DNA of 64,000 nucleotides from an uncultured Chroococcidiopsis sp. Its GTDB lineage: Bacteria > Cyanobacteriota > Cyanobacteriia > Cyanobacteriales > Chroococcidiopsidaceae. The notes below the pieces were generated by a model that was not told where the DNA came from, made no database searches, and saw nothing but the letters and a program-made list of their open reading frames with translations. Both the position numbers and the translations under genes were made by a program. Shown piece by piece: positions 23,174-39,901 of this stretch. The stretch is taken from the NCBI GenBank assembly GCA_964248365.1, contig CAXTYC010000008.1, forward strand, positions 86,492 to 150,491, written 5' to 3'. Numbering within the stretch: the stretch's first letter is position 1; the number at the start of each line of letters is the position of its first letter.

Positions 23174-24073
23174 CTAACGTCTTCGACTACCGAAACCACC
23201 AGACGAGCGACTTCTGCTACCTCCAAACGATCGCCCACTACCAAAACTACCAGATGATGGTTGTCTGAAGGTGGAATTTGACCTACCAGAAGGACGTAAG
23301 GTACTGCCACCAAAGCCCGAACCAGTAGCACGGCTACCTGTGTTAATACGGGGGGTATTTATTCCCGCAGAAGGCGTTCTGATTCGTCCAGTTGTACGGA
23401 AAGTCTGCCGATTTCTGACAGCCGCAGGTGGAGCATTATAACGTGTGCGGTAGCGATCGACTGCTTGACCGTAAGTGCTGCCATAGCCGCCATAACCAGT
23501 TATTACCGAAGCTCCTGGCTGATAAACAGGTGGTACATAGTACTGGGGTCTAAACAAGAGGCTTCCTATAGCTTGACCTGCTATGCCGCCTGCTACAGCT
23601 CCAGCAAACGGAGCCCAGAAACCATTTTCTCGCCGCACTACGACAGTTTCTTGCTGTCCGGTTTGGGGGTTGGTTTGTGTCTGGGTAACGTTATGAACGT
23701 ACTCAATTTTGAAATCTTCCGTTAGATATAAAGCTGGTTGTCCGTTTTCAACCTTTAGATAGGTTTTTTGACCATTCTTAATTTCTTCATCGGTCAGCCG
23801 AGCCATCTGTAAATTTTCGGTGCGAAAAACGGGAGGTGTACCAGATGGTGTATTCAGTAAAACTAGGCTGTACTCTCCAGTACCATCGTCATATTCGACT
23901 TGTTGCACTGGATATTTACCATCGCTGATCCTAGTAGGAGCAGCAGGTGTATTTGCATTCCTTGCTGCACTTGTATTCCTAGCCTGGGGAGTAGTTTGAT
24001 TGGGTCCTCCACAGGCTACAGTTGTCCAGCACAAAGTTAAGGTTAAAAACAGAATTGTGAGTTTACGCAACAT
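23174..24073 (-). CDS. Putative lipoprotein with Gly/Ser/Arg-rich tail
   Basis: Lipobox-like TVAC after a hydrophobic stretch; GSGFGG/SSGSFG tail. Confidence 0.75.
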   Translation of the reverse strand: MLRKLTILFLTLTLCWTTVACGGPNQTTPQARNTSAARNANTPAAPTRISDGKYPVQQVEYDDGTGEYSLVLLNTPSGTPPVFRTENLQMARLTDEEIKNGQKTYLKVENGQPALYLTEDFKIEYVHNVTQTQTNPQTGQQETVVVRRENGFWAPFAGAVAGGIAGQAIGSLLFRPQYYVPPVYQPGASVITGYGGYGSTYGQAVDRYRTRYNAPPAAVRNRQTFRTTGRIRTPSAGINTPRINTGSRATGSGFGGSTLRPSGRSNSTFRQPSSGSFGSGRSFGGSRSRSSGGFGSRRR

Positions 24074-24260
24074 GAAGGTATAGATCGTTAATTCAGCTTT
24101 CACTCTACCTTTAGTGTAAGCAGATACAAGCAATGATTGCTGACTACATCAACCAGGGGCTAGGGGCTAGTGTTGAGGACAACAAGGGCAAGGGGACAAG
24201 GGGGAATTAAATATTCTGTCTTCTGTCTTCTGTCTCCTGACTTCTGACCTGAAGCGTGGG

Positions 24261-24857
24261 TTACAAAGGCACTAATTCGGGAAAATTTTGCAACAGTTGG
24301 TCGTTGGTGAGTTCGTCACCCAGTTGAGCGGGAGAGAAATGCACTTGGATTGCCCGTAGCCGTTCTTGGTAGTGTAGGTTAATCAAAGCTTTCAAACCAG
24401 CTTTCAAGGCACTGATATCCGCTAGATTTGTTTCTAATTGTGGGGCTTCTCCCTCAAAAGCCACCGTAATCATGACAACTAAGTTACGTGTCACTGGCAA
24501 GGAAAGAGGATCATCCGCCCTACCTATGGGAGCATTTAAATCAGGTTCACTTAAGTAGCGTTGGGCTGAGTCGGTAAATAATTCATTGACATAATCTCCT
24601 GCTGCACCTTCATCCCAAAATACATCCCCTTCATTAGCAGCAGAAAGCCAGTATTCATCATATTGTAGCAGACTTTGGCAGATTTCGACTAGTCCTTCTC
24701 CCAAAATTTCTAAATCCCCATCAGCATCAATAGCTTGTCGAGCTGTACGATTGAGAACTCCCAATAGTGGTGCTACCTCTTGTCCTGCAAGATGGAGAAA
24801 CAGACGACAGACTACAAAGCGAGTGCGTCCTGTCATGCGATTGAGCCATGAACTCAT
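24261..24857 (-). CDS. DUF1517-domain protein
   Basis: LVVMITVA, HFSPAQLGDELTNDQLLQNFPELVPL C-terminus. Confidence 0.75.
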   Translation of the reverse strand: MSSWLNRMTGRTRFVVCRLFLHLAGQEVAPLLGVLNRTARQAIDADGDLEILGEGLVEICQSLLQYDEYWLSAANEGDVFWDEGAAGDYVNELFTDSAQRYLSEPDLNAPIGRADDPLSLPVTRNLVVMITVAFEGEAPQLETNLADISALKAGLKALINLHYQERLRAIQVHFSPAQLGDELTNDQLLQNFPELVPL

Positions 24858-31491: not shown

Positions 31492-31932
31492 ATGTTTAAA
31501 TCTATAAGTAAAAAAATGGATGATAATAAAACACGTCACACATTGCTACTAATTCTATTAATTATCAATGTAATTTCCACTAGTCTTCACTACACGGATA
31601 ATTTTCTGAACAATGACAAATATCCAGAACCTGCTTGGCTCACTCCTAATAGTGTTTATATTAGCTGGATCATACTGACATTGTTTGGAGTGGCAGGTTA
31701 CTTGTTGTATGTAAAGGATGCTTTCTGGCTTACTTATTTCTGCCTTGCTATTTATTCAATTACTGGCATTTCAAGTACAGCGCATTACTTTTTTCCCGCT
31801 ACCGAACCATTTTCTTTGAAAATGAATGTGTTGATTTGGTTTGATGCGATCGCAGGTATTTCCCTACTCATTTTTATCTTATGGTCAGGATTAATATTAA
31901 GAGAGTGGGAAAGTGCGATCGCCGATCAATAA
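31492..31932 (+). CDS. Hypothetical four-TM membrane protein
   Basis: Four hydrophobic segments; LHYTDN and AHY motifs. Confidence 0.7.
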   Translation: MFKSISKKMDDNKTRHTLLLILLIINVISTSLHYTDNFLNNDKYPEPAWLTPNSVYISWIILTLFGVAGYLLYVKDAFWLTYFCLAIYSITGISSTAHYFFPATEPFSLKMNVLIWFDAIAGISLLIFILWSGLILREWESAIADQ

Positions 31933-31933
31933 T

Positions 31934-34471
31934 CTATTCAATTCGTACAAATTTACCACCTTGAATTTTAATTACTGCATCATTTTGTGCGAGAGACACT
32001 CTTTCTCCTGTACCGCTATCGAACCTAAATTTTCCAGTTGCACCATTAACTTCAAATTTAGGGTTTCTGAGTAAACTGTTTATCTCTTGACGATTTGGCT
32101 GTCGTAGTTGCTCTAAAGCAGTTGCGATCGCCTTTGTTGCATCATAAGCCATAGGCGATCGCCAGGTAATTGTTTTTGGATGCCAACTCGACTGAAACTT
32201 GCTGACAAAAGAATTTTTCTCTGCATTCGGATACCAGGGAACTGATAATGTTAAACCTTCTACTGCTTTCCCGCCTAACTCAATTGTTTTATTTGTATTT
32301 AGAGTAGGGCTACCAAACAGCCTCACTTGTAACTTATTGGAGCGCACTGCTTTGAATATTTCTGTTGCCTTGGCAATTCTATCGACATGAGGTGACATCA
32401 GCAAGGCATTAACACTGTTCTTTTTAATTTCCGCTACTACACTACTAGGTTTGAAATTTGGGTTGGAAAAGTCACAGTGTAAATCTATTGACTGTCCTTT
32501 ATCGGCTCTGAAAACTTGCTCAAATTGGTTTTTAAAGAATTCATTATCTGGTGCATCAGGATCTAAACAAATGCCAACTTTGGGATTAGGGACTTGATGG
32601 CGAATAAAATTTGATAGCTTCGCTGCAAAATAAGTAATCTGGGGAACCATCCTAAAAATATACGGCTTGTCTTGCAATTTGTCAGAAAAACTAGTCGGCG
32701 ATATCATTACTAGTTCTCTTTGGTTATATATGTCAGCAGCAGCAACCGAGGCATTCGAGGCATTATGCCCAACTACGGCTAAAATTGTGGTGTCTTTGAC
32801 AAATTTATCAGCAACTTTTCGAGCCAGAACGTCGTTGTTATTGTCATTGGCAATTACTACTTGTAATAGCTTGCCATTGATTCCATCATCGTCTTTAATT
32901 TCCTCTTGAAGTTGAGAAACAGGCTGTAACATCTCTTCTGCTACAGGTTGATTGCTACCAATAGGTACGCTAACCGCAATTTTTAAAGGTTCTTCTTTTC
33001 GAGTTGCTGCTATTGCATTGTTTAAATAAATTCGTGTTTCTGAATCGTTAGGGTTACGCTTGAGAGCAGCTTTGAAATTAGCGATCGCATTTGAATAATC
33101 TTGCTGTGCAAATGCTTTCACACCTGCTTCTTTCTCAGGGCTACTATTTTTAAATAGAACTTCTTCCCCCAAACTAATTCCAGGTGCAGATTCCGCCGCC
33201 CGATGAAATAAAGAATTATATATCCAGTAGGCAGCAGGTATTGATAGCACGGCAGCTGATAATATGATTAATAGCTTTACTTTTTGTGCAGTTGCAGGAT
33301 TTGGCAATGATTTAGTTGCTTTTGCTACTGGCTGCTGTGAAGGTTTTGCTTGAGGATAAAATAGCCCCTGTTCTTCGGGATTTTGGAAAAGCACAGGTAG
33401 CCAAGAGGCGTTAGGGGAGCGATTTTCGATTAACCTGAGCTTGTCACGGGCTTCACGCACTGCTTGATGTAAAGAAGCACCACCAGCAAAACAGGTGAGA
33501 AAATCATCTAAAAATTTTTGGGCGACGTTATCGTGAATCGGCTGCCGCATTACGATAACATGAGGAATCTGTAAAGAAGCTAGTTGTCGTGCCAATCCTA
33601 ACCCATCACAAGAGTTAAAAATTGCCAGTTTCAAACCATTTTCTACCGCTGTTTCTAGAGCAGTATTTAGTTGTTTAGGGGATAAATATTCTTGGTCATT
33701 GATCCAAATTCGTGCATTGTTACCTGCTGGTTCAGTTGCACTATGTCCGGCAAAGAAAACAATATCCCAAGGCTGACTCCTCAGTTTTTCTCTTAGCTCA
33801 GTTGCTCTAGGTTTTCGTAGCAGAACTAATTCGGCGAGTGGTAAATTCTTCTGGATAATGTTCCAGTCTGTTTCAATATCAATATGTTCATCGCTACCCA
33901 GAATTACTAGAAGTTTGACAGGTTCGCTCAGAGATCCTCTTGGTGGTACTCTAATGCTGCTCAGAGCAACTTCGGCATAACGATAGCGCTTTCTAAGTAA
34001 CCCCCATAACTCCCAAGGTATTTTTTGTAATTCTGAGTTTTCAGTTTCTATAATGAAGCTGACAGAATCATTTTTGCCCACTGTATGTAGCAATTCATCT
34101 CGTATATCCTTAATGGCAGAACGATCTAACCAGTCATTTAGGGCAAGCTCAAACTTGGGAGCAATTTTACTAGTATTATCCTCACTATCTCCACTTGAAT
34201 AATTTTTGATTATTTGGTTTGGAACACTAATTTGCCGAGTACTTTCCCGCCACCAGCGGCAGCTTTCTCCCCAAGATATGTGTTCTTCTAGCCAGTCATT
34301 CAAAAGTTTGACTATTTCTGGTGCTGGTGACAAACTACCCTTAACTTCTGAAACACAAAGCCGACCATTTTCTCTAATTTGTAATCTGACAGGAAAACCA
34401 TTCTCAAAATCACCGCCTCCAATTTGAAAAACAACTTGCTTGCTCCTTTCTACTAAGTTTTGGGCATTCAT
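31934..34471 (-). CDS. CHAT (caspase-like) protease - TM - TPR - LivJ-like periplasmic binding domain fusion
   Basis: FFAGHS and FNSCDG catalytic dyad; TM LLIILSAAVLSIPAAYWIY; GINGKLLQVVIAND, LAVVGHNAS, MISPTS, AYDAT. Confidence 0.9.
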   Translation of the reverse strand: MNAQNLVERSKQVVFQIGGGDFENGFPVRLQIRENGRLCVSEVKGSLSPAPEIVKLLNDWLEEHISWGESCRWWRESTRQISVPNQIIKNYSSGDSEDNTSKIAPKFELALNDWLDRSAIKDIRDELLHTVGKNDSVSFIIETENSELQKIPWELWGLLRKRYRYAEVALSSIRVPPRGSLSEPVKLLVILGSDEHIDIETDWNIIQKNLPLAELVLLRKPRATELREKLRSQPWDIVFFAGHSATEPAGNNARIWINDQEYLSPKQLNTALETAVENGLKLAIFNSCDGLGLARQLASLQIPHVIVMRQPIHDNVAQKFLDDFLTCFAGGASLHQAVREARDKLRLIENRSPNASWLPVLFQNPEEQGLFYPQAKPSQQPVAKATKSLPNPATAQKVKLLIILSAAVLSIPAAYWIYNSLFHRAAESAPGISLGEEVLFKNSSPEKEAGVKAFAQQDYSNAIANFKAALKRNPNDSETRIYLNNAIAATRKEEPLKIAVSVPIGSNQPVAEEMLQPVSQLQEEIKDDDGINGKLLQVVIANDNNNDVLARKVADKFVKDTTILAVVGHNASNASVAAADIYNQRELVMISPTSFSDKLQDKPYIFRMVPQITYFAAKLSNFIRHQVPNPKVGICLDPDAPDNEFFKNQFEQVFRADKGQSIDLHCDFSNPNFKPSSVVAEIKKNSVNALLMSPHVDRIAKATEIFKAVRSNKLQVRLFGSPTLNTNKTIELGGKAVEGLTLSVPWYPNAEKNSFVSKFQSSWHPKTITWRSPMAYDATKAIATALEQLRQPNRQEINSLLRNPKFEVNGATGKFRFDSGTGERVSLAQNDAVIKIQGGKFVRIE

Positions 34472-34575
34472 ATATGTCTTCCTTGGGGCGGTATAATCTT
34501 AAAATTTAAGTCAAAAAGAAGGAGCATAAATGAAAACTCAATAATTCTTTAACTGCTAGTTTCCACTAGCTAAAA

Positions 34576-35937
34576 TTAAACTATAAAGTATTCGGTAATA
34601 CTTGAAGAAGCCAGAACAAGACGAACACCAAAGCGATCGCCCACGTCAGCTCTAAAATAAAGAGAAATGTAATCGTCTTGTGGCTCATTTCTCGCTACAG
34701 CTTCCAACCCAGAAATGCTTGCGCCATTTTCATTTACTCCTAGTAATTGCAAAAGGGGTGGTAATTTAGTTTGGCTACCTGTAGGATAAGCTCTTAGCAA
34801 CACGCCAATTCGACTATCTGGTTTACGTAAAACTGCTACCATCAAAGCAACAGGATACCCCATTAGTTGAATTCCTAAATCCATCACTCTTCTAATAGCA
34901 GCATCGGGATGATGGGGATTGATCGCCCACAAATATTCAGCCGCCTGCCAACAAGTGGTATCATCTTCAGTTGTCTGCATTAGATGAACTAAGGCGGATT
35001 CTGGTTCAAAATTGGCAGGGAGAGCAACCATGTTTTGACTACTATACAACTGCGCGATCGCTCGTTTCACCAATTCTTGTGTATCCAATCTAATTCCTCT
35101 GACTTTTTTCGAGCGAACTGCTGGAGTTAGAGTCTTTGCATTCAACCAATTTTCGATTGTCTGCCAACCAGCTTCAACTACACCATCAAACCAAGCTCCC
35201 AGCCGCACTAATTGCGGTTGAACTCGTTCCATGCGCCGCTGGTATAATTTTTGTAACCATACTTGCCGATCTAGTAATGCTCCCCACTGCTCAAACTTCA
35301 CTTCTAGCCTGGGAGAATAGGACGATGGTTGGCTCAGTTGCTCAATTAAAGCTTTAGCATCATCATTTGACAACGAAGTTAATAAGGCTACTTCTCCTTT
35401 TTCATCAGGATAATCGAGTGCAACCCACAGCAAATCTAAGTTTGCAATTACGGCATCTTGCTCTACATAATAAGTATTCGCTGTCGCGTCATACTCACCT
35501 TTAGCTTTCAAACTGCGGCGAGAAACAAAGCCCCAAATATGCAGGTATTTCTCAGTAAGATCGAATTGTACGGGTAAATAATAATCTGCTGCCCAACTGG
35601 GTATATCTACCCATTCTTGAGGTACAGCAAAATCCTCGGTGTCTATAGCATCACTGGGAATCAGCACTAGTCGCTTTTGCTCTAGCTCAATTGCTATACC
35701 ATTTACTACTTCCCAAGCGATTTCACCTGGAAACAAAGTGAAATTAGCGGATAAACCGAAATCCTGTATCAATTTTACCAACAAATTAAAACACAAACGA
35801 GCAATTTTGGCATGATTGCGTCCAGTTTGGTTAGAGTAACTTCTGGTTGCAGCTTCAGCGATTTGCAAATCGCTGTCGGAAAATTCTAACCAAATGTGTT
35901 CAGAATAAATTTTGCGTAATATTTCTATCGACTTCAT
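34576..35937 (-). CDS. DUF1822-family protein (candidate anti-sigma/partner)
   Basis: WEVVNG..I....RLVLIP, VPQEWVDIPSWAADYYL, LGAWFDG...GWQ, DLGIQL, DRFGVRL...SITEYF. Confidence 0.85.
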   Translation of the reverse strand: MKSIEILRKIYSEHIWLEFSDSDLQIAEAATRSYSNQTGRNHAKIARLCFNLLVKLIQDFGLSANFTLFPGEIAWEVVNGIAIELEQKRLVLIPSDAIDTEDFAVPQEWVDIPSWAADYYLPVQFDLTEKYLHIWGFVSRRSLKAKGEYDATANTYYVEQDAVIANLDLLWVALDYPDEKGEVALLTSLSNDDAKALIEQLSQPSSYSPRLEVKFEQWGALLDRQVWLQKLYQRRMERVQPQLVRLGAWFDGVVEAGWQTIENWLNAKTLTPAVRSKKVRGIRLDTQELVKRAIAQLYSSQNMVALPANFEPESALVHLMQTTEDDTTCWQAAEYLWAINPHHPDAAIRRVMDLGIQLMGYPVALMVAVLRKPDSRIGVLLRAYPTGSQTKLPPLLQLLGVNENGASISGLEAVARNEPQDDYISLYFRADVGDRFGVRLVLASSSITEYFIV

Positions 35938-35949
35938 TGTATTTCCTGT

Positions 35950-37338
35950 TTAATCCAAATGTTGACTGAAAGAATGCATTCCAGATTCGTTTAACCTTTG
36001 TTCTACCAACATAGGAATTTTGGCGATCGCACATCCTTGTTGATCTAGTTTTAATTCAATGTGTTGCTCAATTTGTCTTGTTAGGCGATCGCACAAATAA
36101 ACGAGCGGTTCCCAAGGTGCAATTCGCATTTGTGGTAGTGAGTCTATTGATGAATCCCAAAATTTATCTATGATTTCGCTGCAATAACTACCTAGCAATG
36201 ATTCCATCTCTGATAAGCCTTCAGAACTCGGTTCAATATTTAGATTTTGTCTTACCCAATTCCAAATTTGAGGCAAGATTTTCTTGTATACCGATTGCAG
36301 ATGACGACAGATTTGATATTGCTTTAATCCTAGTTCAGTGGCAACTTCATTTTGTGTTAATTCCAAACCATAGCTAAGAAAAAGAATTTGGTATTTTTGC
36401 ACTGGCTGAATTTTTAGTTCATTTATCAGGCGCTCTATCTCCTGCTTCAATTCACCTAATTCTTCTATATCCATGCTCGATTCTGAGGAAGGCATTACAA
36501 AACTAGCATTTTCCTCACCGCGCTCAAGAGCAGCATCTAGAGAAGTAGTTTGTGGAGCTAATAATTCTCGAATTGCTGCTCCGATATTTTCTAGCCAAGT
36601 TTTGATCTGTTCTCCATTTATATTTTGTCCGTGTAATTGGTTGTAACGTTCAGCAATTTTCTGGTAATGTTCCACCAAAATATTATTTACCGCCAGATTG
36701 CTAGCATTTTTTACTTCTTGAAAACATTGCCAAGCCAGTAAATATTGAGATAATTGTAGCCCTCCGTAATTTGAATTTTGTATAGCTTCTTTTACTCGTT
36801 TGCGGCTGGCGCGTGCCACCAAAGCCAAGTTCGAGCGCCCCAAAGTTTCGATTTGGGTAATTTTTCTTACTTGGGTAAGTAAAAGATACTTAATTTTTTG
36901 CTCGGTAAACTTCTTTAACGTGGGATACCAATAGACAATTTGAGAACGCCTAATATCGAACTTAGCCAAAAATTTTTCCGGCTCGATTGTAGCTTGATAA
37001 CCTATGATAAATAAGTCAGAGAAACAATCAAACCGTAAATGATCGGGTAGTAGCCACATAATTTTGTTAGCTACTTTTTCACAGCTTCTTTGAAGAAAAG
37101 CAATCCAATGTCTACGGCATAATTCATCGGGGGGATGCTGCTGTAACTGCTCGAATAAATATCGAGCTAGTAATGCTTCTAGTCTCTGTTCATCTAATTG
37201 TGCTGATGGATCTATTTGAGTAGCGCAACGATTAATATGCTGTAATAACTGTTGGTCAACTCGCCAGATAATGCGACGATTTTCTATGCTGCTGGGTATG
37301 GTATAAAAGCACTCAAGGGGCATGGCGTGTGTAATCAA
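35950..37338 (-). CDS. Sigma-70-like (HetZ-related) RNA polymerase sigma factor / HTH regulator
   Basis: Region-4-like HTH ILFLSYGLELTQNEVATELGLKQYQICRHL; SLDA motif; YLLAWQCFQE. Alternative ATG at 37323. Confidence 0.75.
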   Translation of the reverse strand: MITHAMPLECFYTIPSSIENRRIIWRVDQQLLQHINRCATQIDPSAQLDEQRLEALLARYLFEQLQQHPPDELCRRHWIAFLQRSCEKVANKIMWLLPDHLRFDCFSDLFIIGYQATIEPEKFLAKFDIRRSQIVYWYPTLKKFTEQKIKYLLLTQVRKITQIETLGRSNLALVARASRKRVKEAIQNSNYGGLQLSQYLLAWQCFQEVKNASNLAVNNILVEHYQKIAERYNQLHGQNINGEQIKTWLENIGAAIRELLAPQTTSLDAALERGEENASFVMPSSESSMDIEELGELKQEIERLINELKIQPVQKYQILFLSYGLELTQNEVATELGLKQYQICRHLQSVYKKILPQIWNWVRQNLNIEPSSEGLSEMESLLGSYCSEIIDKFWDSSIDSLPQMRIAPWEPLVYLCDRLTRQIEQHIELKLDQQGCAIAKIPMLVEQRLNESGMHSFSQHLD

Positions 37339-37351
37339 AGAGTGGAGTTAA

Positions 37352-38734
37352 TTAATCTGCCGTAGGGAGCTTGACAAATTCGTAAACAGAGCCTTTAGAT
37401 TGAACTTGGACAATCACAGGCTGACCGATGCGATCGCCACTAGGTGAAAATCTAACCGCAACACCAGCTCCCTCAACTGCAAACTGGGGACTTCGCAACA
37501 CTTGCTCTAAACCATCACGAGTATTACTTTGCTGCAATCCTGCAATAATCGCTCTTGTTGCATCATAAGCCGTAGCCGAGCGCCAACTTACCTTACCGCG
37601 CCATCTTTGACTCATCTTGTCTGCAAAAGAATTGCGCGGATTAGCTTGGGGATGCCAAGGTGCAGCTAGCACTAATCCTTCAACACTTTGCTGCCCAAGT
37701 TGTAAGGTTTTAATGGTATACATTGTCGGGCTGCTAAATAGAGCTAATTTGCCCTGATTTTGATTTGCTCTTGCAAGATCGATCCCAGCTTGTAAGCGAT
37801 CGACATGAGGAGAGATAAATAACCCATCCGCACCACTGCTTACAGCTTGATTTACTGCCGTAAAAGCGTTAAAGTTAGGAGCAGATAAATCGCAAACGGT
37901 GGGGACTAATTGACCTCCCTTTGACACAAAAGCTGCCTGAAATTCATCTTTGAATGAGACATTATCTGGGGCTTGGGAATCGTAACAAAAAGCAATTTTG
38001 GTTTTATGGGCAGTTTTAACTGTATAGTTGGCTAACGCTGTTGCTGTTACTTTGGTAGTGAGAACAGTCCGAAAAATATAATTACCAATTCCAGAGAGAT
38101 TATTAGCAAAACTAGTAGGTGACACCATCACTAAACCCCCCTTTTGATAGATGGGAGCAGCCGCCAAAGATGCATCTGAGGCATTATGTCCTACAACTGC
38201 TAATACTTGCGAATCTTTAACTAATTGTTCGGCTACCTGACGGGCAATTTCAGGTTTATTTTCATCATTCACAATCTCTACAAGCAATTTTTGCCCATTG
38301 ATTCCACCCTGCTGGTTAATTTCATCCTGCGCCTGGGCGACACCTCGAAGGATTTCTTGAGCAACATTGAGGTTACTGCCGATTGGTACGCTTACAGCTA
38401 TTTTGAGAAAGCGATCGCCTACTTGGGCGTTATTTAAATAGATCAGTGTTTCGGGATCGTTAGGATACTGGAGGAGGGATTTTTTAAAATGTTCAATTGC
38501 CTCAGAGTGATCGCCCCCCGCAAATGCTTCAATTCCCTTTTGTTTGTCTGGTGTAGCATCTTTTTGGATTAATAAGCGATTACCGATACTGACGCGATCG
38601 CTACTACTAAATCTGTCTTTGTTAACACTTTCGCGCAGTTTTGGAACTAAGAAAATCAATAACAATCCCAGGCAGATGTAGACAATCGGAGGTAGTCCAC
38701 CTTTCTTAGTTTTTACATCATGTGGTTGCGACAT
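37352..38734 (-). CDS. Membrane-anchored LivJ-like (Venus-flytrap) substrate-binding protein with TPR
   Basis: N-terminal TM; PNDPETLIYLNNA, KIAVSVPIGSN, GGINGQKL, VVGHNAS, AYDAT. Confidence 0.88.
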   Translation of the reverse strand: MSQPHDVKTKKGGLPPIVYICLGLLLIFLVPKLRESVNKDRFSSSDRVSIGNRLLIQKDATPDKQKGIEAFAGGDHSEAIEHFKKSLLQYPNDPETLIYLNNAQVGDRFLKIAVSVPIGSNLNVAQEILRGVAQAQDEINQQGGINGQKLLVEIVNDENKPEIARQVAEQLVKDSQVLAVVGHNASDASLAAAPIYQKGGLVMVSPTSFANNLSGIGNYIFRTVLTTKVTATALANYTVKTAHKTKIAFCYDSQAPDNVSFKDEFQAAFVSKGGQLVPTVCDLSAPNFNAFTAVNQAVSSGADGLFISPHVDRLQAGIDLARANQNQGKLALFSSPTMYTIKTLQLGQQSVEGLVLAAPWHPQANPRNSFADKMSQRWRGKVSWRSATAYDATRAIIAGLQQSNTRDGLEQVLRSPQFAVEGAGVAVRFSPSGDRIGQPVIVQVQSKGSVYEFVKLPTAD

Positions 38735-38794
38735 ATGTAATTATTGAAATTTGAATTATGAATTGTATAAACTGATATCTTGCACCTGTTGCAA

Positions 38795-38916
38795 CAGCCG
38801 CTCTCGAAATTAATTTCCCAGCTTACAGCTAAAATCGATTGAAATCGGTTCAAGCCTTCCTGGTAGTCTACTTCAGTAGACTTCTGCTATGAGCCGTGAA
38901 CTTAAGTTTACGGCGG
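38795..38916. repeat. Multi-hairpin dispersed repeat (REP-like)
   Basis: Palindromes GAAATTAATTTC, AGTCTACTTCAGTAGACT and GCCGTGAAC..GTTTACGGC. Confidence 0.55.
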
Positions 38917-38942: not shown

Positions 38943-39677
38943 CTAATTAGTATTTTTCAACTTGGCAAGACGACGGGAAATTTCATCATCAAGCGTCAAG
39001 CGTTCTAAATCTGTTTGCAGCTTATCCGTGTGACTTTCAGATAGTTCTGCTTGAGCATTAACTTTCAAATATCTGCCTTCGATTGCTGCTTGTGCAGATT
39101 CAAATTGATCGCTAGCTGCACTGAGGTTTAAACTACTATCAACTTTGGCAATTGTCGCTAAGGCTTCATTGATTTCTGATAAAGCCTTCAGATTTTGCAT
39201 TTCTGTTTTATAAGCCTCTACCTTTTCTCGTTCCCGATAGAGTTTTTCTTTAGCGGCAATTACTACTTTTTCAGCAGAGGCAACTTGTTCGGCAATTTTG
39301 GGTAGTAGCCGTTCAATTGCGATCGCCCGGCTCATTGACAATCTTGCTGCTTCTTCATTACCTTGTTCATAGGCAAGCCTTGCCCCATTTTCTGCCTGTT
39401 TCAACTCTTGAAGTTTGGCTGCGTATTTAGTTTGAGCTTTTTCATAAGCAGCTACTACTGTGGCGACAGATTCAGTAATTTTGGCGATCGATCTTTGCAT
39501 CGATTCGAGAGATTCCTGCGCCACTTCTTGTGCAATTTTGCCTCCAGATTCGACTGGAATACCCCATAGCCAATTCCAGATCCCTACCAAAGTACGTCCA
39601 GATCTGTCCCCAATTAACCAATATATGACCAGTTTTAACTTACCTTCGCCAATTAACCAATAAATCAGTTGCTTCAT
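38943..39677 (-). CDS. PspA/IM30-family coiled-coil protein
   Basis: Long coiled coil; ARLAYEQGNEEAARL, LDDEISRRLAKLK. Confidence 0.82.
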   Translation of the reverse strand: MKQLIYWLIGEGKLKLVIYWLIGDRSGRTLVGIWNWLWGIPVESGGKIAQEVAQESLESMQRSIAKITESVATVVAAYEKAQTKYAAKLQELKQAENGARLAYEQGNEEAARLSMSRAIAIERLLPKIAEQVASAEKVVIAAKEKLYREREKVEAYKTEMQNLKALSEINEALATIAKVDSSLNLSAASDQFESAQAAIEGRYLKVNAQAELSESHTDKLQTDLERLTLDDEISRRLAKLKNTN

Positions 39678-39901
39678 TTCTCACCACTTCCAACCCATCT
39701 GATTAAGTATTGGGATGGAGTAAGAAAAAAATGCAGCCTGTTTCTGCCTGCGATTATTAACTTATATTAAATCCGGCTAAACACCCATAAATTCTATAGG
39801 GGCGGGTTTAATGATACATCTGGCTCGAAGACAAATTACCTAGTTAACCCGCCTCTACTAAACACTATTTTTACAGGTATTTCACCCTTCCAACCTTCAT
39901 A

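What the first reader, a model, noticed from the sequence alone, without database searches (positions are those of the whole stretch)
31934..38734. Candidate receptor-protease / anti-sigma / sigma signalling operon with a Venus-flytrap co-receptor
Seen: four co-oriented genes with gaps of 13, 12 and 104 bp. They encode an anchored LivJ-like binding protein, a 462-aa protein with a sigma region-4-like HTH, a DUF1822 protein, and a CHAT protease. The protease has an intact His (FFAGHS) and Cys (FNSCDG), and one TM helix joins it to a TPR plus LivJ-like domain. No ABC permease or ATPase is nearby. Known: CHAT proteases are caspase-like; Anabaena HetF (CHAT) cleaves PatU3, a partner of HetZ; the Craspase protease Csx29 cleaves the sigma inhibitor Csx30. 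Inference: a periplasmic ligand activates the cytoplasmic protease, which cleaves DUF1822 and frees the sigma-like factor. That would be a kinase-free transmembrane pathway with unknown ligand and regulon.
Basis: partly seen in the sequence, partly recalled or inferred. Interest (0 to 1): 0.85.

Follow-up and report, generated by a model that had tools for sequence, protein, structure and literature searches.

The report
Protease-gated sigma switch for envelope repair
A cyanobacterial operon encodes a membrane sensor joined to a caspase-like protease, a sigma factor and its probable inhibitor; this core was predicted by computer in 2021, and here it comes with a likely promoter, a likely cut site and membrane-repair target genes that make it testable.

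Summary
The four genes, gaps and catalytic His243/Cys288 are as described. The sigma / DUF1822 / CHAT core is the EACC2-caspase system that Kaur et al. predicted in 2021; I found no experimental study, and this scan has noted the core, and a TGCAT promoter, on other genomes.

Added here:
(1) Modelling supports sigma:DUF1822 binding (0.87, best control 0.00), covering sigma region 2 and the region-4 helix.
(2) DUF1822 has a conserved Arg275-Ser in its least ordered linker, resembling the HetF cut in PatU3.
(3) The operon has a fifth, upstream gene (PspA/IM30-like, 38943-39677) behind a TGCAT-N17-CCAAT motif that tracks this sigma clade and, in relatives, precedes sigma, psp, kinase, protease and flotillin-like genes.
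(4) The free Venus-flytrap protein is better read as a sigma-induced membrane partner of the PspA-like protein than as an obligatory co-receptor: it shares a PPIV anchor with unrelated PspA partners, and many receptor loci lack it.

Best model: an outside signal activates the cytoplasmic protease, DUF1822 is cut, and sigma turns on itself and envelope-repair genes. Cleavage, gating and ligand are inferred, not shown. New variant of a known kind.

The parts
39709..39735 (-). Candidate promoter TGCAT-N17-CCAAT (putative -35 and -10), ending 31 nt before the PspA-like ATG
   Evidence: function inferred
38943..39677 (-). PspA/IM30-like gene, 244 aa; probable first gene of the operon and output of the sigma factor
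   Evidence: Pfam PF04012 E 2.7e-12; linkage
38760..38915 (.). Dispersed genomic repeat filling most of the 208-bp gap between the PspA-like and free VFT genes (approximate ends)
   Evidence: blastn: 19 further hits in the genome, 70-80% identity in those printed
37352..38734 (-). Membrane-anchored TPR plus Venus-flytrap (Peripla_BP_6) protein, 460 aa, with a PPIV motif at the start of the anchor
35950..37338 (-). Long divergent sigma-70-type factor (462 aa from TTG; probably 457 aa from ATG 37323): region-2-like about 54-161, insertion about 165-260, region 4 about 290-362
34576..35937 (-). DUF1822 protein, 453 aa, candidate anti-sigma: N-terminal alpha/beta sigma-binding domain (1-240), linker, helical part, C-terminal beta-sandwich
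35113..35115 (-). Codon of DUF1822 Arg275 (PAVR|S), candidate P1 residue
   Evidence: Arg in 92 of 101 rows; lowest pLDDT block, 60; cleavage inferred
31934..34471 (-). Receptor-protease, 845 aa: N-terminal EACC2-like domain, CHAT (His243, Cys288), one TM helix (about 400-421), periplasmic TPR and Venus-flytrap domain

Best explanation
A transmembrane proteolytic switch for an envelope-repair response. At rest the N-terminal domain of DUF1822 binds the sigma factor across region 2, its basic insertion and the region-4 recognition helix, holding it inactive (binding modelled, inhibition inferred). The 845-aa receptor has its CHAT domain in the cytoplasm and its TPR-Venus-flytrap part outside (topology from sequence). 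A periplasmic cue, probably not a standard branched-chain amino acid, activates the protease (inferred), which cuts DUF1822 after Arg275 (inferred) and frees sigma. Sigma then fires TGCAT-N17-CCAAT promoters (motif and its link to this sigma clade shown computationally; recognition inferred). In this genome that drives psp, free VFT, sigma, DUF1822 and receptor as one autoregulated unit. The free VFT protein is mainly an induced membrane partner of the PspA-like protein and may feed back on the receptor. My odds by step: sigma binds DUF1822 0.85; sigma reads the motif 0.85; CHAT cuts DUF1822 0.65; VFT gates the protease 0.6; free VFT is chiefly a PspA partner 0.65.
For: Order sigma, DUF1822, CHAT-VFT in 11 of 11 close-clade loci. 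His243/Cys288 invariant in 60 rows. More K/R on the N-side of the TM in 48, on the C-side in 4, of 59 rows with a TM. All 52 sigma-alignment members hit TIGR02937 at E<=0.01; fold hits are nearly all sigma factors. Complex score 0.87, best of 3 controls 0.00; runs agree in at least 85% of contacts, partner pLDDT at least 82; that mark was reached by 116 of 157 solved and 2 of 215 mismatched pairs, counts only rough with my own alignments. Only DUF1822 residues 3-211 touch sigma, so the linker lies outside the interface. Arg275 in 92 of 101 rows. HetF cuts PatU3 between Arg117 and Ser118 (PMC9457339), and PatU3 is a potential anti-sigma of HetZ (PMC13342950). A matrix trained on 11 sigma-upstream sites alone ranks the site before our psp gene joint first (boxes) or third (all columns) in 5.58 Mb. 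In G414 and G541 all 3 exact pattern matches per genome lie in the locus. Three or more matches in 10 of 12 genomes with the close sigma, 6 of 389 others (counted by eye). Motif upstream of 13 of 15 close-clade sigma genes, 2 of 48 distant ones, 1 of 50 small sigma, 6 of 735 unlabelled ORFs. Genes behind the motif include psp, an M48 and S8 proteases, a Band_7 protein, kinases and a glycine-rich multi-TM protein.
Against: No experiment exists for any step. Modelled interface residues are no more conserved than the rest (0.70 vs 0.66 in sigma, 0.71 vs 0.73 in DUF1822). Arg210, Arg235 and Arg416 are as conserved as Arg275, and several DUF1822 proteins next to CHAT-VFT genes lack the linker Arg (L040, L047-L049, L055). 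The sigma score is below the curated cut-off, the best fold Z is only 9.1 and the Foldseek hits are all weaker than E 0.001. The motif counts are partly circular: most of the 13 of 15 sites were training sites and the regex was widened. The 12 genomes come from three families, 130 of 401 genomes have at least one match, and the reversed control is biased low. The psp, kinase and glycine-rich promoters are nearly identical, so they are probably copies of one cassette rather than independent sites. In G000 no second convincing target gene appeared. L051-L106-type loci show the same core with other sensors, so envelope repair need not be the role of the whole family.
Confidence: 0.55

Rival explanations
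1. One reading: same switch, but the free Venus-flytrap protein is a needed co-receptor that pairs with the receptor's own Venus-flytrap domain to bind ligand and activate the protease.
For: 34 of the best 120 receptor homologs carry two TPR-VFT units in one chain (counted by eye). Six of 11 close-clade loci hold 2-4 full CHAT-VFT genes. Of 20 psp-VFT pairs, 14 lie near a sigma/DUF1822/CHAT-VFT locus, against 3 of 32 psp pairs with a PstS-like partner near a DUF1822 gene. Free and fused VFT lineages form separate supported clades drawn from the same genomes (quick tree), and the free one is more conserved (73-78% vs 54-58%; 61-63% vs 41-42%).
Against: Many single CHAT-VFT loci show no second VFT in the fetched DNA (L032, L036-L038, L040, L044, L046-L049, L055, L120). 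Three of 11 close-sigma genomes gave no psp match at E<=1e-40. The free protein follows the psp gene, and its PPIV anchor is shared with PstS-like PspA partners (54 of 57) but absent from the genome's other free VFT paralogs. Tandem VFT units do not group with the psp-linked free clade. No VFT:VFT complex was modelled.
Confidence: 0.2
2. Kaur-type conflict system: the protease activates by cutting itself, and DUF1822 is an adaptor or effector that binds sigma without being the destroyed inhibitor (for example a co-activator or a nuclease-fold effector).
For: Kaur et al. proposed autopeptidase activation. The DUF1822 N-domain model resembles restriction-endonuclease folds (DpnI Z 6.8, rmsd 4.5, 144 aligned; Hjc Z 6.5). 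The genome has six DUF1822 genes and a paralogous protease with nSTAND1 and WD40 domains. The system is patchy: close sigma not found in 6 same-genus genomes at E<=1e-100.
Against: Z below 7 may be only a common arrangement. The modelled contact covers the region-4 recognition helix, as expected of an inhibitor. The genes behind the motif look like membrane repair, not defence. The linker Arg-Ser parallels a proven CHAT substrate.
Confidence: 0.15
3. The motif is a repeated cassette or a site for another regulator, and the psp-VFT pair is a passenger not controlled by this sigma.
For: Near-identical 5' regions, even shared first codons, before psp, kinase and glycine-rich genes. In small-sigma loci psp has a different upstream element, a TGTAA direct repeat. 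The pattern occurs at least once in 130 of 401 genomes.
Against: Sigma-upstream sites share only the two boxes, the spacing and a T-rich spacer with psp-upstream sites. The motif follows the sigma clade. The -10 box shifts to CCCGAT in a neighbouring sigma subclade (L116, L129, L130).
Confidence: 0.07
4. The free protein is an orphan ABC-transporter binding protein and the neighbours are a chance grouping.
For: Best solved relatives are LivJ-type binding proteins; databases name the receptor homologs 'ABC transporter substrate-binding protein'.
Against: Conserved order and linkage. LivJ Thr102, Tyr150 and Tyr202 align to Phe, Pro and His. No ABC ATPase by regex in the window.
Confidence: 0.03

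Closest known systems
EACC2-caspase systems with ECF sigma and DUF1822 (Kaur, Iyer, Burroughs, Aravind, eLife 2021, PMC8195603)
   Same: Constant N-terminal alpha+beta domain plus caspase-like domain, variable C-terminal sensor behind a TM helix, neighbouring sigma and DUF1822 genes; computational prediction.
   Different: A periplasmic-binding-protein sensor is not named (text says 'several small-molecule-binding domains'; 0 'PBP' in main text and Fig. 3 source data). They proposed autoproteolysis and called DUF1822 a TPR protein; the model here shows no TPR fold. No anti-sigma role, cut site, promoter or PspA link in what I read.
Anabaena HetF / PatU3 / sigma-HetZ (PMC9457339, PMC13342950)
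   Same: CHAT-TM-periplasmic TPR protease, Arg-Ser cut in a sigma inhibitor, long ECF-like sigma with insertions.
   Different: Not orthologous: HetF model 24 bits vs cut-off 1200; sigma family vs HetZ probability 10.9%, region 4 and C-terminus only; DUF1822 vs PatU 0.3%. Different promoter (TCCGGA / TGnA). HetF has no VFT domain in the description I read.
Myxococcus DdvS / DdvA (PMC6061681)
   Same: ECF sigma controlled through a membrane protein with TPR and CHAT; clustered local promoters.
   Different: In DdvA the CHAT domain is extracytoplasmic and part of the anti-sigma; here it is cytoplasmic and the candidate anti-sigma is a separate soluble protein.
Craspase Csx29 / Csx30 / CASP-sigma (recalled) and the SAVED-CHAT cascade (bioRxiv 2023.06.23.546230, search listing only)
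   Same: A caspase-like protease cuts an inhibitor and frees a sigma factor.
   Different: Triggered inside the cell by CRISPR target RNA or cyclic oligoadenylate, not by a membrane receptor; no CRISPR genes were seen here.
PSP / Lia envelope-stress systems (Ravi et al. 2024, PMC11237479)
   Same: PspA with a membrane partner, Band-7 proteins and a dedicated regulator; PspA next to PBPB proteins is listed in two supplementary rows.
   Different: Those PBPB contexts include Snf7, AAA+ and ABC genes; the supplement has 0 hits for DUF1822 or CHAT.

Membership tests
EACC2-caspase / ECF sigma / DUF1822 system | N-terminal EACC2 domain | tested here: inconclusive
   No EACC2 profile at hand. Indirect: an HMM of residues 8-125 hits the N-termini of paralogs with CHAT+CHASE2 and CHAT+nSTAND1+WD40 (E 2e-27, 5e-13, 5e-13), the architectures Kaur labels EACC2+CASPASE.
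EACC2-caspase / ECF sigma / DUF1822 system | Caspase-like domain with His-Cys dyad after the N-domain | tested here: met
   CHAT E 2.8e-15; His243/Cys288 invariant in 60 rows.
EACC2-caspase / ECF sigma / DUF1822 system | Variable C-terminal sensor, may be extracellular behind TM | tested here: met
   TM plus TPR plus Peripla_BP_6 here; CHASE2 or nSTAND1-WD40 in paralogs.
EACC2-caspase / ECF sigma / DUF1822 system | Adjacent sigma and DUF1822 genes | tested here: met
EACC2-caspase / ECF sigma / DUF1822 system | Autoproteolytic activation (proposed in the paper) | not testable with these tools
   Needs an assay.
sigma-70 family | Region 2 and region 4 domains | tested here: met
   Model matches sigma-4 domains (2h27 Z 8.4, rmsd 1.2, 69 aligned) and region-2 fragments (5h6x Z 7.2, rmsd 3.0, 96 aligned; 4x8k Z 6.6); 52 of 52 members hit TIGR02937. 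Individual Z values are middling.
sigma-70 family | Curated TIGR02937 cut-off (42.9 bits) | tested here: not met
   40 bits.
sigma-70 family | Binds core RNA polymerase and directs transcription | not testable with these tools
   Needs an assay.
HetF / PatU / HetZ pathway | Orthology to HetF, HetZ and PatU | tested here: not met
   NF045509 24 bits vs 1200; hhalign 10.9% to HetZ, 0.3% to PatU, the latter with only 3 PatU rows. Atlas lists a HetZ-related cluster at 0.90 as a lead.
TRADD-N-linked EACC2 subtype | TRADD-N domain in the partner gene | tested here: inconclusive
   No TRADD-N family in the Pfam scan at E<=0.1, none among fold rows; no dedicated profile was run.
LivJ/LivK amino-acid ABC binding proteins | Ser79 and Thr102 polar contacts, Tyr150/Tyr202 pocket | tested here: not met
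   Ser kept (Ser186); Thr102 to Phe209, Tyr150 to Pro, Tyr202 to His310. Residue list is from a docking passage in PMC6983066.
LivJ/LivK amino-acid ABC binding proteins | Cognate permease and ATPase genes nearby | tested here: not met
   No ABC ATPase by regex in the window; three other flanking ORFs scanned are not ABC parts.
PspA/IM30 family | PF04012 above gathering score | tested here: met
   47.2 bits vs 33.9.

The most novel reading that the evidence does not exclude
A closed-loop, phosphorylation-free envelope-stress circuit: a Venus-flytrap receptor directly gates a cytoplasmic caspase-like protease, which destroys a new fold of anti-sigma (DUF1822); the freed sigma induces an ESCRT-III-like PspA together with a membrane-anchored Venus-flytrap protein that both recruits PspA through its PPIV anchor and pairs with the receptor as co-receptor or feedback decoy. 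It would generalise the HetF-PatU3-HetZ logic to a family of parallel, sensor-swappable switches (six DUF1822 genes in this genome) and tie bacterial ESCRT-III recruitment to small-molecule sensing.
Probability: 0.2. Interest if true: 0.82.

Novelty: new variant of a known kind. Interest (0 to 1): 0.58.

Why it matters
DUF1822 and its CHAT and sigma partners are common in cyanobacteria (836 clusters at 50% identity hit the sigma profile; six DUF1822 genes in this genome), yet I found no experiment on them. This locus offers concrete handles: a predicted complex, one candidate scissile bond, a two-box promoter for a reporter, and a target set pointing to membrane repair. If right, DUF1822 is a new anti-sigma family, HetF-PatU3-HetZ is one case of a wider cyanobacterial design, and a PspA subfamily has an undescribed class of anchored binding-protein partners.

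Tried and rejected
Homology to HetZ/PatU: weak or none; DUF1822 alignment against the 214-aa protein after the genome's CHAT-FHA gene, probability 0.6%. PDB sequence search with the sigma protein: one irrelevant hit, E 0.12. Foldseek of DUF1822: only low-TM, high-rmsd hits; VIA-align best Z 6.8, so no fold is assigned. Atlas with DUF1822 1-240, skipping PF08852: no usable hit. Metagenome scan with the sigma alignment: 2 distant loci only. Sigma-70 consensus and terminator scan: 27 vs 21.8 +/- 4.7 and 10 vs 6.8 +/- 2.6, uninformative. The bare pattern in the window alone is not significant: 2 matches, 0.78 expected, 21 of 100 shuffles reach 2. A second sigma-type motif for small-sigma loci was sought; only a TGTAA direct repeat emerged. 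A wider regulon in G000: no convincing second target. Interface conservation: no enrichment. Literature: DUF1822 appears in 2 papers; EACC2 in 36, of which 20 were listed and only Kaur is relevant; five-term search 0 papers; some searches gave only the papers cited. The ECF reclassification paper has 0 hits for DUF1822, CHAT or caspase in its main text (supplements not searched). The script dropped L169 through an ORF overlap; one search shows it is psp, free VFT with kinase and CHAT-VFT genes, which would make 15 of 21. No structure of the receptor and no CHAT:DUF1822 or VFT:VFT complex was modelled.


Full report
Observation. Pfam and NCBIfam give CHAT, TPR and Peripla_BP_6 for the 845-aa protein, DUF1822 for the 453-aa protein, TPR and Peripla_BP_6 for the 460-aa protein, and a sub-threshold sigma-70 match for the 462-aa protein. 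Named homologs and genome records are almost all cyanobacterial. The window is G000:C8:86492-150491.

Prior art. Kaur et al. 2021 (PMC8195603; I read section 9, passages, part 3 of 6 of supplement 3, and term searches of the supplements) describe proteins with a constant EACC2 domain and a caspase domain followed by variable sensors. Most TRADD-N-independent neighbourhoods also encode an ECF sigma factor and DUF1822, and the authors propose autopeptidase activation with a sigma output. 'PBP' occurs 0 times in the main text and in supplement 3. In the other files only the first two places per term were shown and none was an EACC2 row; the figure itself is not held. So the core is a known prediction. 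DUF1822 appears in 2 papers of the library (the second, PMC9679502, is a variant table). The library lacks most subscription journals.

The receptor. Of the best 120 of 1654 homologs, 116 match a His motif and 115 a Cys motif by regex. In an alignment of the query with 59 single-VFT homologs both residues are invariant. Lys/Arg counts flanking the TM favour N-in in 48 rows and C-in in 4, of 59 with a TM, so CHAT is cytoplasmic and TPR-VFT periplasmic. HetF is described with the same CHAT, TM, periplasmic TPR layout (PMC9457339, passages). An HMM of residues 8-125 finds the N-termini of three paralogs in G000 that carry CHASE2 or nSTAND1-WD40, the architectures Kaur labels EACC2+CASPASE. Against LivJ, Ser79 is kept but Thr102, Tyr150 and Tyr202 align to Phe, Pro and His (residue list from a docking passage in PMC6983066). 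The SPTSF motif is kept in both free and fused clades. A standard branched-chain amino acid ligand is therefore doubtful (inference).

Sigma and DUF1822. The AlphaFold model of the 462-aa protein (pLDDT 83.6, pTM 0.53) matches region-4 domains over about 290-362 and region-2 fragments over about 54-161. Foldseek's top rows are nearly all sigma factors, though none reaches E 0.001. All 52 alignment members hit TIGR02937. The DUF1822 model (pLDDT 86.6) has an alpha/beta N-domain, a low-confidence linker (261-280), three helices and a beta-sandwich, with no confident fold match. The complex job gave 0.87 against a best control of 0.00; runs agree in at least 85% of contacts and partner pLDDT is at least 82. 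That mark was reached by 116 of 157 solved and 2 of 215 mismatched pairs, counts that hold only roughly with my alignments. It supports binding and does not show it. Contacts join DUF1822 3-211, including the acidic strand 95-104, to sigma 144-163, the basic segment 176-181 and the region-4 helix 341-356. Interface residues are not more conserved than the rest.

Cut site. HetF cuts PatU3 between Arg117 and Ser118, and R117A/D/H block it. PatU3 is called a potential anti-sigma of the insertion-bearing ECF sigma HetZ (PMC13342950; abstract, sections 8 and 9, passages; supplement not read, and its tree of HetZ homologs may bear on this family). DUF1822 has Arg275 in 92 of 101 rows, within the lowest-confidence block of the model, and a hydrophobic-Arg-small motif aligns there in most of 97 DUF1822 ORFs from the fetched loci (regex 17 of 23 and 44 of 59 in two classes; 0 of 15 by regex in the third, 14 of 15 by eye in the alignment). 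The G000 paralog without a neighbouring CHAT gene (L112) is the one that lacks it. Against this, other arginines are as conserved, and L040, L047-L049 and L055 lack the Arg beside intact receptors. The proteins are not orthologs of HetZ or PatU, so this works like HetF-PatU3-HetZ without belonging to it.

Neighbourhood. The close sigma clade is patchy: 24 of 401 genomes of the order at E<=1e-60, 11 besides G000 above 600 bits. All 11 have sigma, DUF1822, CHAT-VFT in that order. A PspA-like gene followed by a free VFT gene lies in the same locus, within about 16 kb, in 7 of the 11 (L117/L224, L118, L119, L124/L168, L125, L126/L169, L127/L172), on another contig in 1, and was not found with this query in 3. 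The PspA-like gene has matches in 97 of 401 genomes. I fetched 60 of the 101 matches, hand-picked across the ranking. Of 59 scored, 20 have a VFT gene next; 14 of these lie by a sigma/DUF1822/CHAT-VFT locus, 2 by a kinase-VFT gene and 4 by neither (classified by eye). Over 65 psp loci the next gene is an N-anchored binding protein in 57: 25 VFT and 32 PstS-like (PBP_like_2). A PPIV-type motif begins the anchor in 54 of the 57. The anchor is constant and the ectodomain swappable, which points to a PspA partner, in the manner of PspC or LiaI (analogy recalled). The five same-genus genomes checked lack the receptor and the 146-aa ORF within 1.5 kb of coaE. The 208-bp gap after psp is mostly a dispersed repeat.

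Promoter. Comparing upstream regions showed TGCAT-N17-CCAAT before our psp gene and before the non-homologous sigma genes of relatives; it lies at 39735-39709. A matrix without our site ranks it first in G000, and one trained on 11 sigma-upstream sites alone ranks it joint first by boxes or third by all columns. A combined matrix finds 35 sites in 345 kb of 21 close-clade loci (overlapping loci and training sites included), 11 in 2.19 Mb of 143 other loci and 9 in G000. The sites sit mostly about 30 nt before psp, kinase and glycine-rich membrane-protein genes, and also before S8 protease, DUF4359, RTX-repeat and M48 protease genes. One genome-wide site precedes a Band_7 gene. In G414 and G541 all three exact matches fall inside the locus; three same-genus genomes without the close sigma have none. 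Across 401 genomes, three or more matches occur in 10 of 12 with the close sigma and 6 of 389 others, two of which hold related loci (counted by eye; kin are not independent, and the reversed control is biased by its TA and CG content). Upstream of sigma genes the motif is in 13 of 15 close, 2 of 48 distant, 1 of 50 small-sigma and 6 of 735 unlabelled ORFs (partly circular). Our own sigma gene lacks it, as expected if it is read from the psp promoter. Clustered promoters of one pattern are also how DdvS works (PMC6061681, passages).

Mechanism and verdict. Shown in sequence: gene content, intact dyad, topology signal, conserved linkage, motif and its tracking of the sigma clade. Modelled: sigma:DUF1822 binding. 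Inferred: inhibition, cleavage at Arg275, gating by the VFT domain, the envelope-repair role. The co-receptor idea keeps some support (two-VFT receptors in 34 of 120 homologs; paired clades) but is not required by the gene sets. The PSP survey (PMC11237479, passages and supplement search) and the ECF reclassification (PMC7826278, passages) show no such system in what I saw. Earlier notes of this scan report the same core on eight other DNA stretches and a TGCAT bipartite promoter on one (seen after I had found the motif); none matched the PspA plus Venus-flytrap words or this sequence. These notes are not evidence. Verdict: real, a new variant of a predicted kind, untested and now directly testable; interest 0.58.

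Noticed in passing
L175-L226 (psp loci), e.g. L184:6423-7337: A cyanobacterial PspA subfamily is followed in 32 of 65 loci by an anchored PstS-like (PBP_like_2) protein with the same PPIV anchor as the free VFT protein; this pair usually has no CHAT system nearby. I did not find it described in the PSP survey passages.
   Followed up: partly
P0228-P0294; L033, L035, L041: About 1240-aa CHAT receptors with two tandem TPR-VFT units; flotillin-like, NfeD, DUF2207 and glycine-rich genes lie upstream in several small-sigma loci.
   Followed up: partly
L124 / L168 (G435:C21): Four tandem CHAT-VFT receptor genes behind one sigma and DUF1822 pair, with diverged VFT domains, suggesting several inputs to one switch.
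   Followed up: no
L173, L174, L177, L178, L183, L191, L032, L047-L049 upstream regions: TGTAAAGTTTTGTAA direct repeat before psp, small-sigma or glycine-rich genes; it resembles the RpaB HLR1 site (recalled, not tested).
   Followed up: no
L108-L112 (G000 C8, C9, C48, C59, C64): Five more DUF1822 loci in this genome, with CHASE2 or nSTAND1-WD40 proteases; the C64 pair has no adjacent CHAT gene, lacks the linker Arg and faces a 642-aa ORF that looks like a caspase-WD40 protein (not scanned).
   Followed up: partly
L113:1158-6697 (G000 C3): A Ser/Thr kinase gene followed directly by an anchored TPR-VFT gene, then mgtC and a second anchored VFT gene; neither VFT has the PPIV anchor. Possibly a split kinase-VFT receptor.
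   Followed up: no
L114:3043-5366 (G000 C3): CHAT-FHA protein (526 aa) followed by a 214-aa protein with no Pfam family, between a kinase-like and an FHA-like gene; a possible further protease-substrate pair.
   Followed up: partly
L245 and G000:C31:57238-58155: Two distant HetZ-family proteins in this genome (91 and 85 bits, below the 550 cut-off).
   Followed up: no
L117:13590-16830: Near-identical promoter and 5' regions before kinase, glycine-rich and psp genes, with shared first codons in two of them: an array of cassettes built by copying one promoter.
   Followed up: partly
window 31492-31932: 146-aa low-GC (0.35) membrane ORF converging on the receptor gene with a 1-bp gap; absent beside coaE in 5 same-genus genomes.
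   Followed up: partly
window 23174-24857: A 319-aa lipoprotein-like ORF with a Gly/Ser/Arg-rich tail preceded by a 198-aa ORF, both on the minus strand; not scanned.
   Followed up: no
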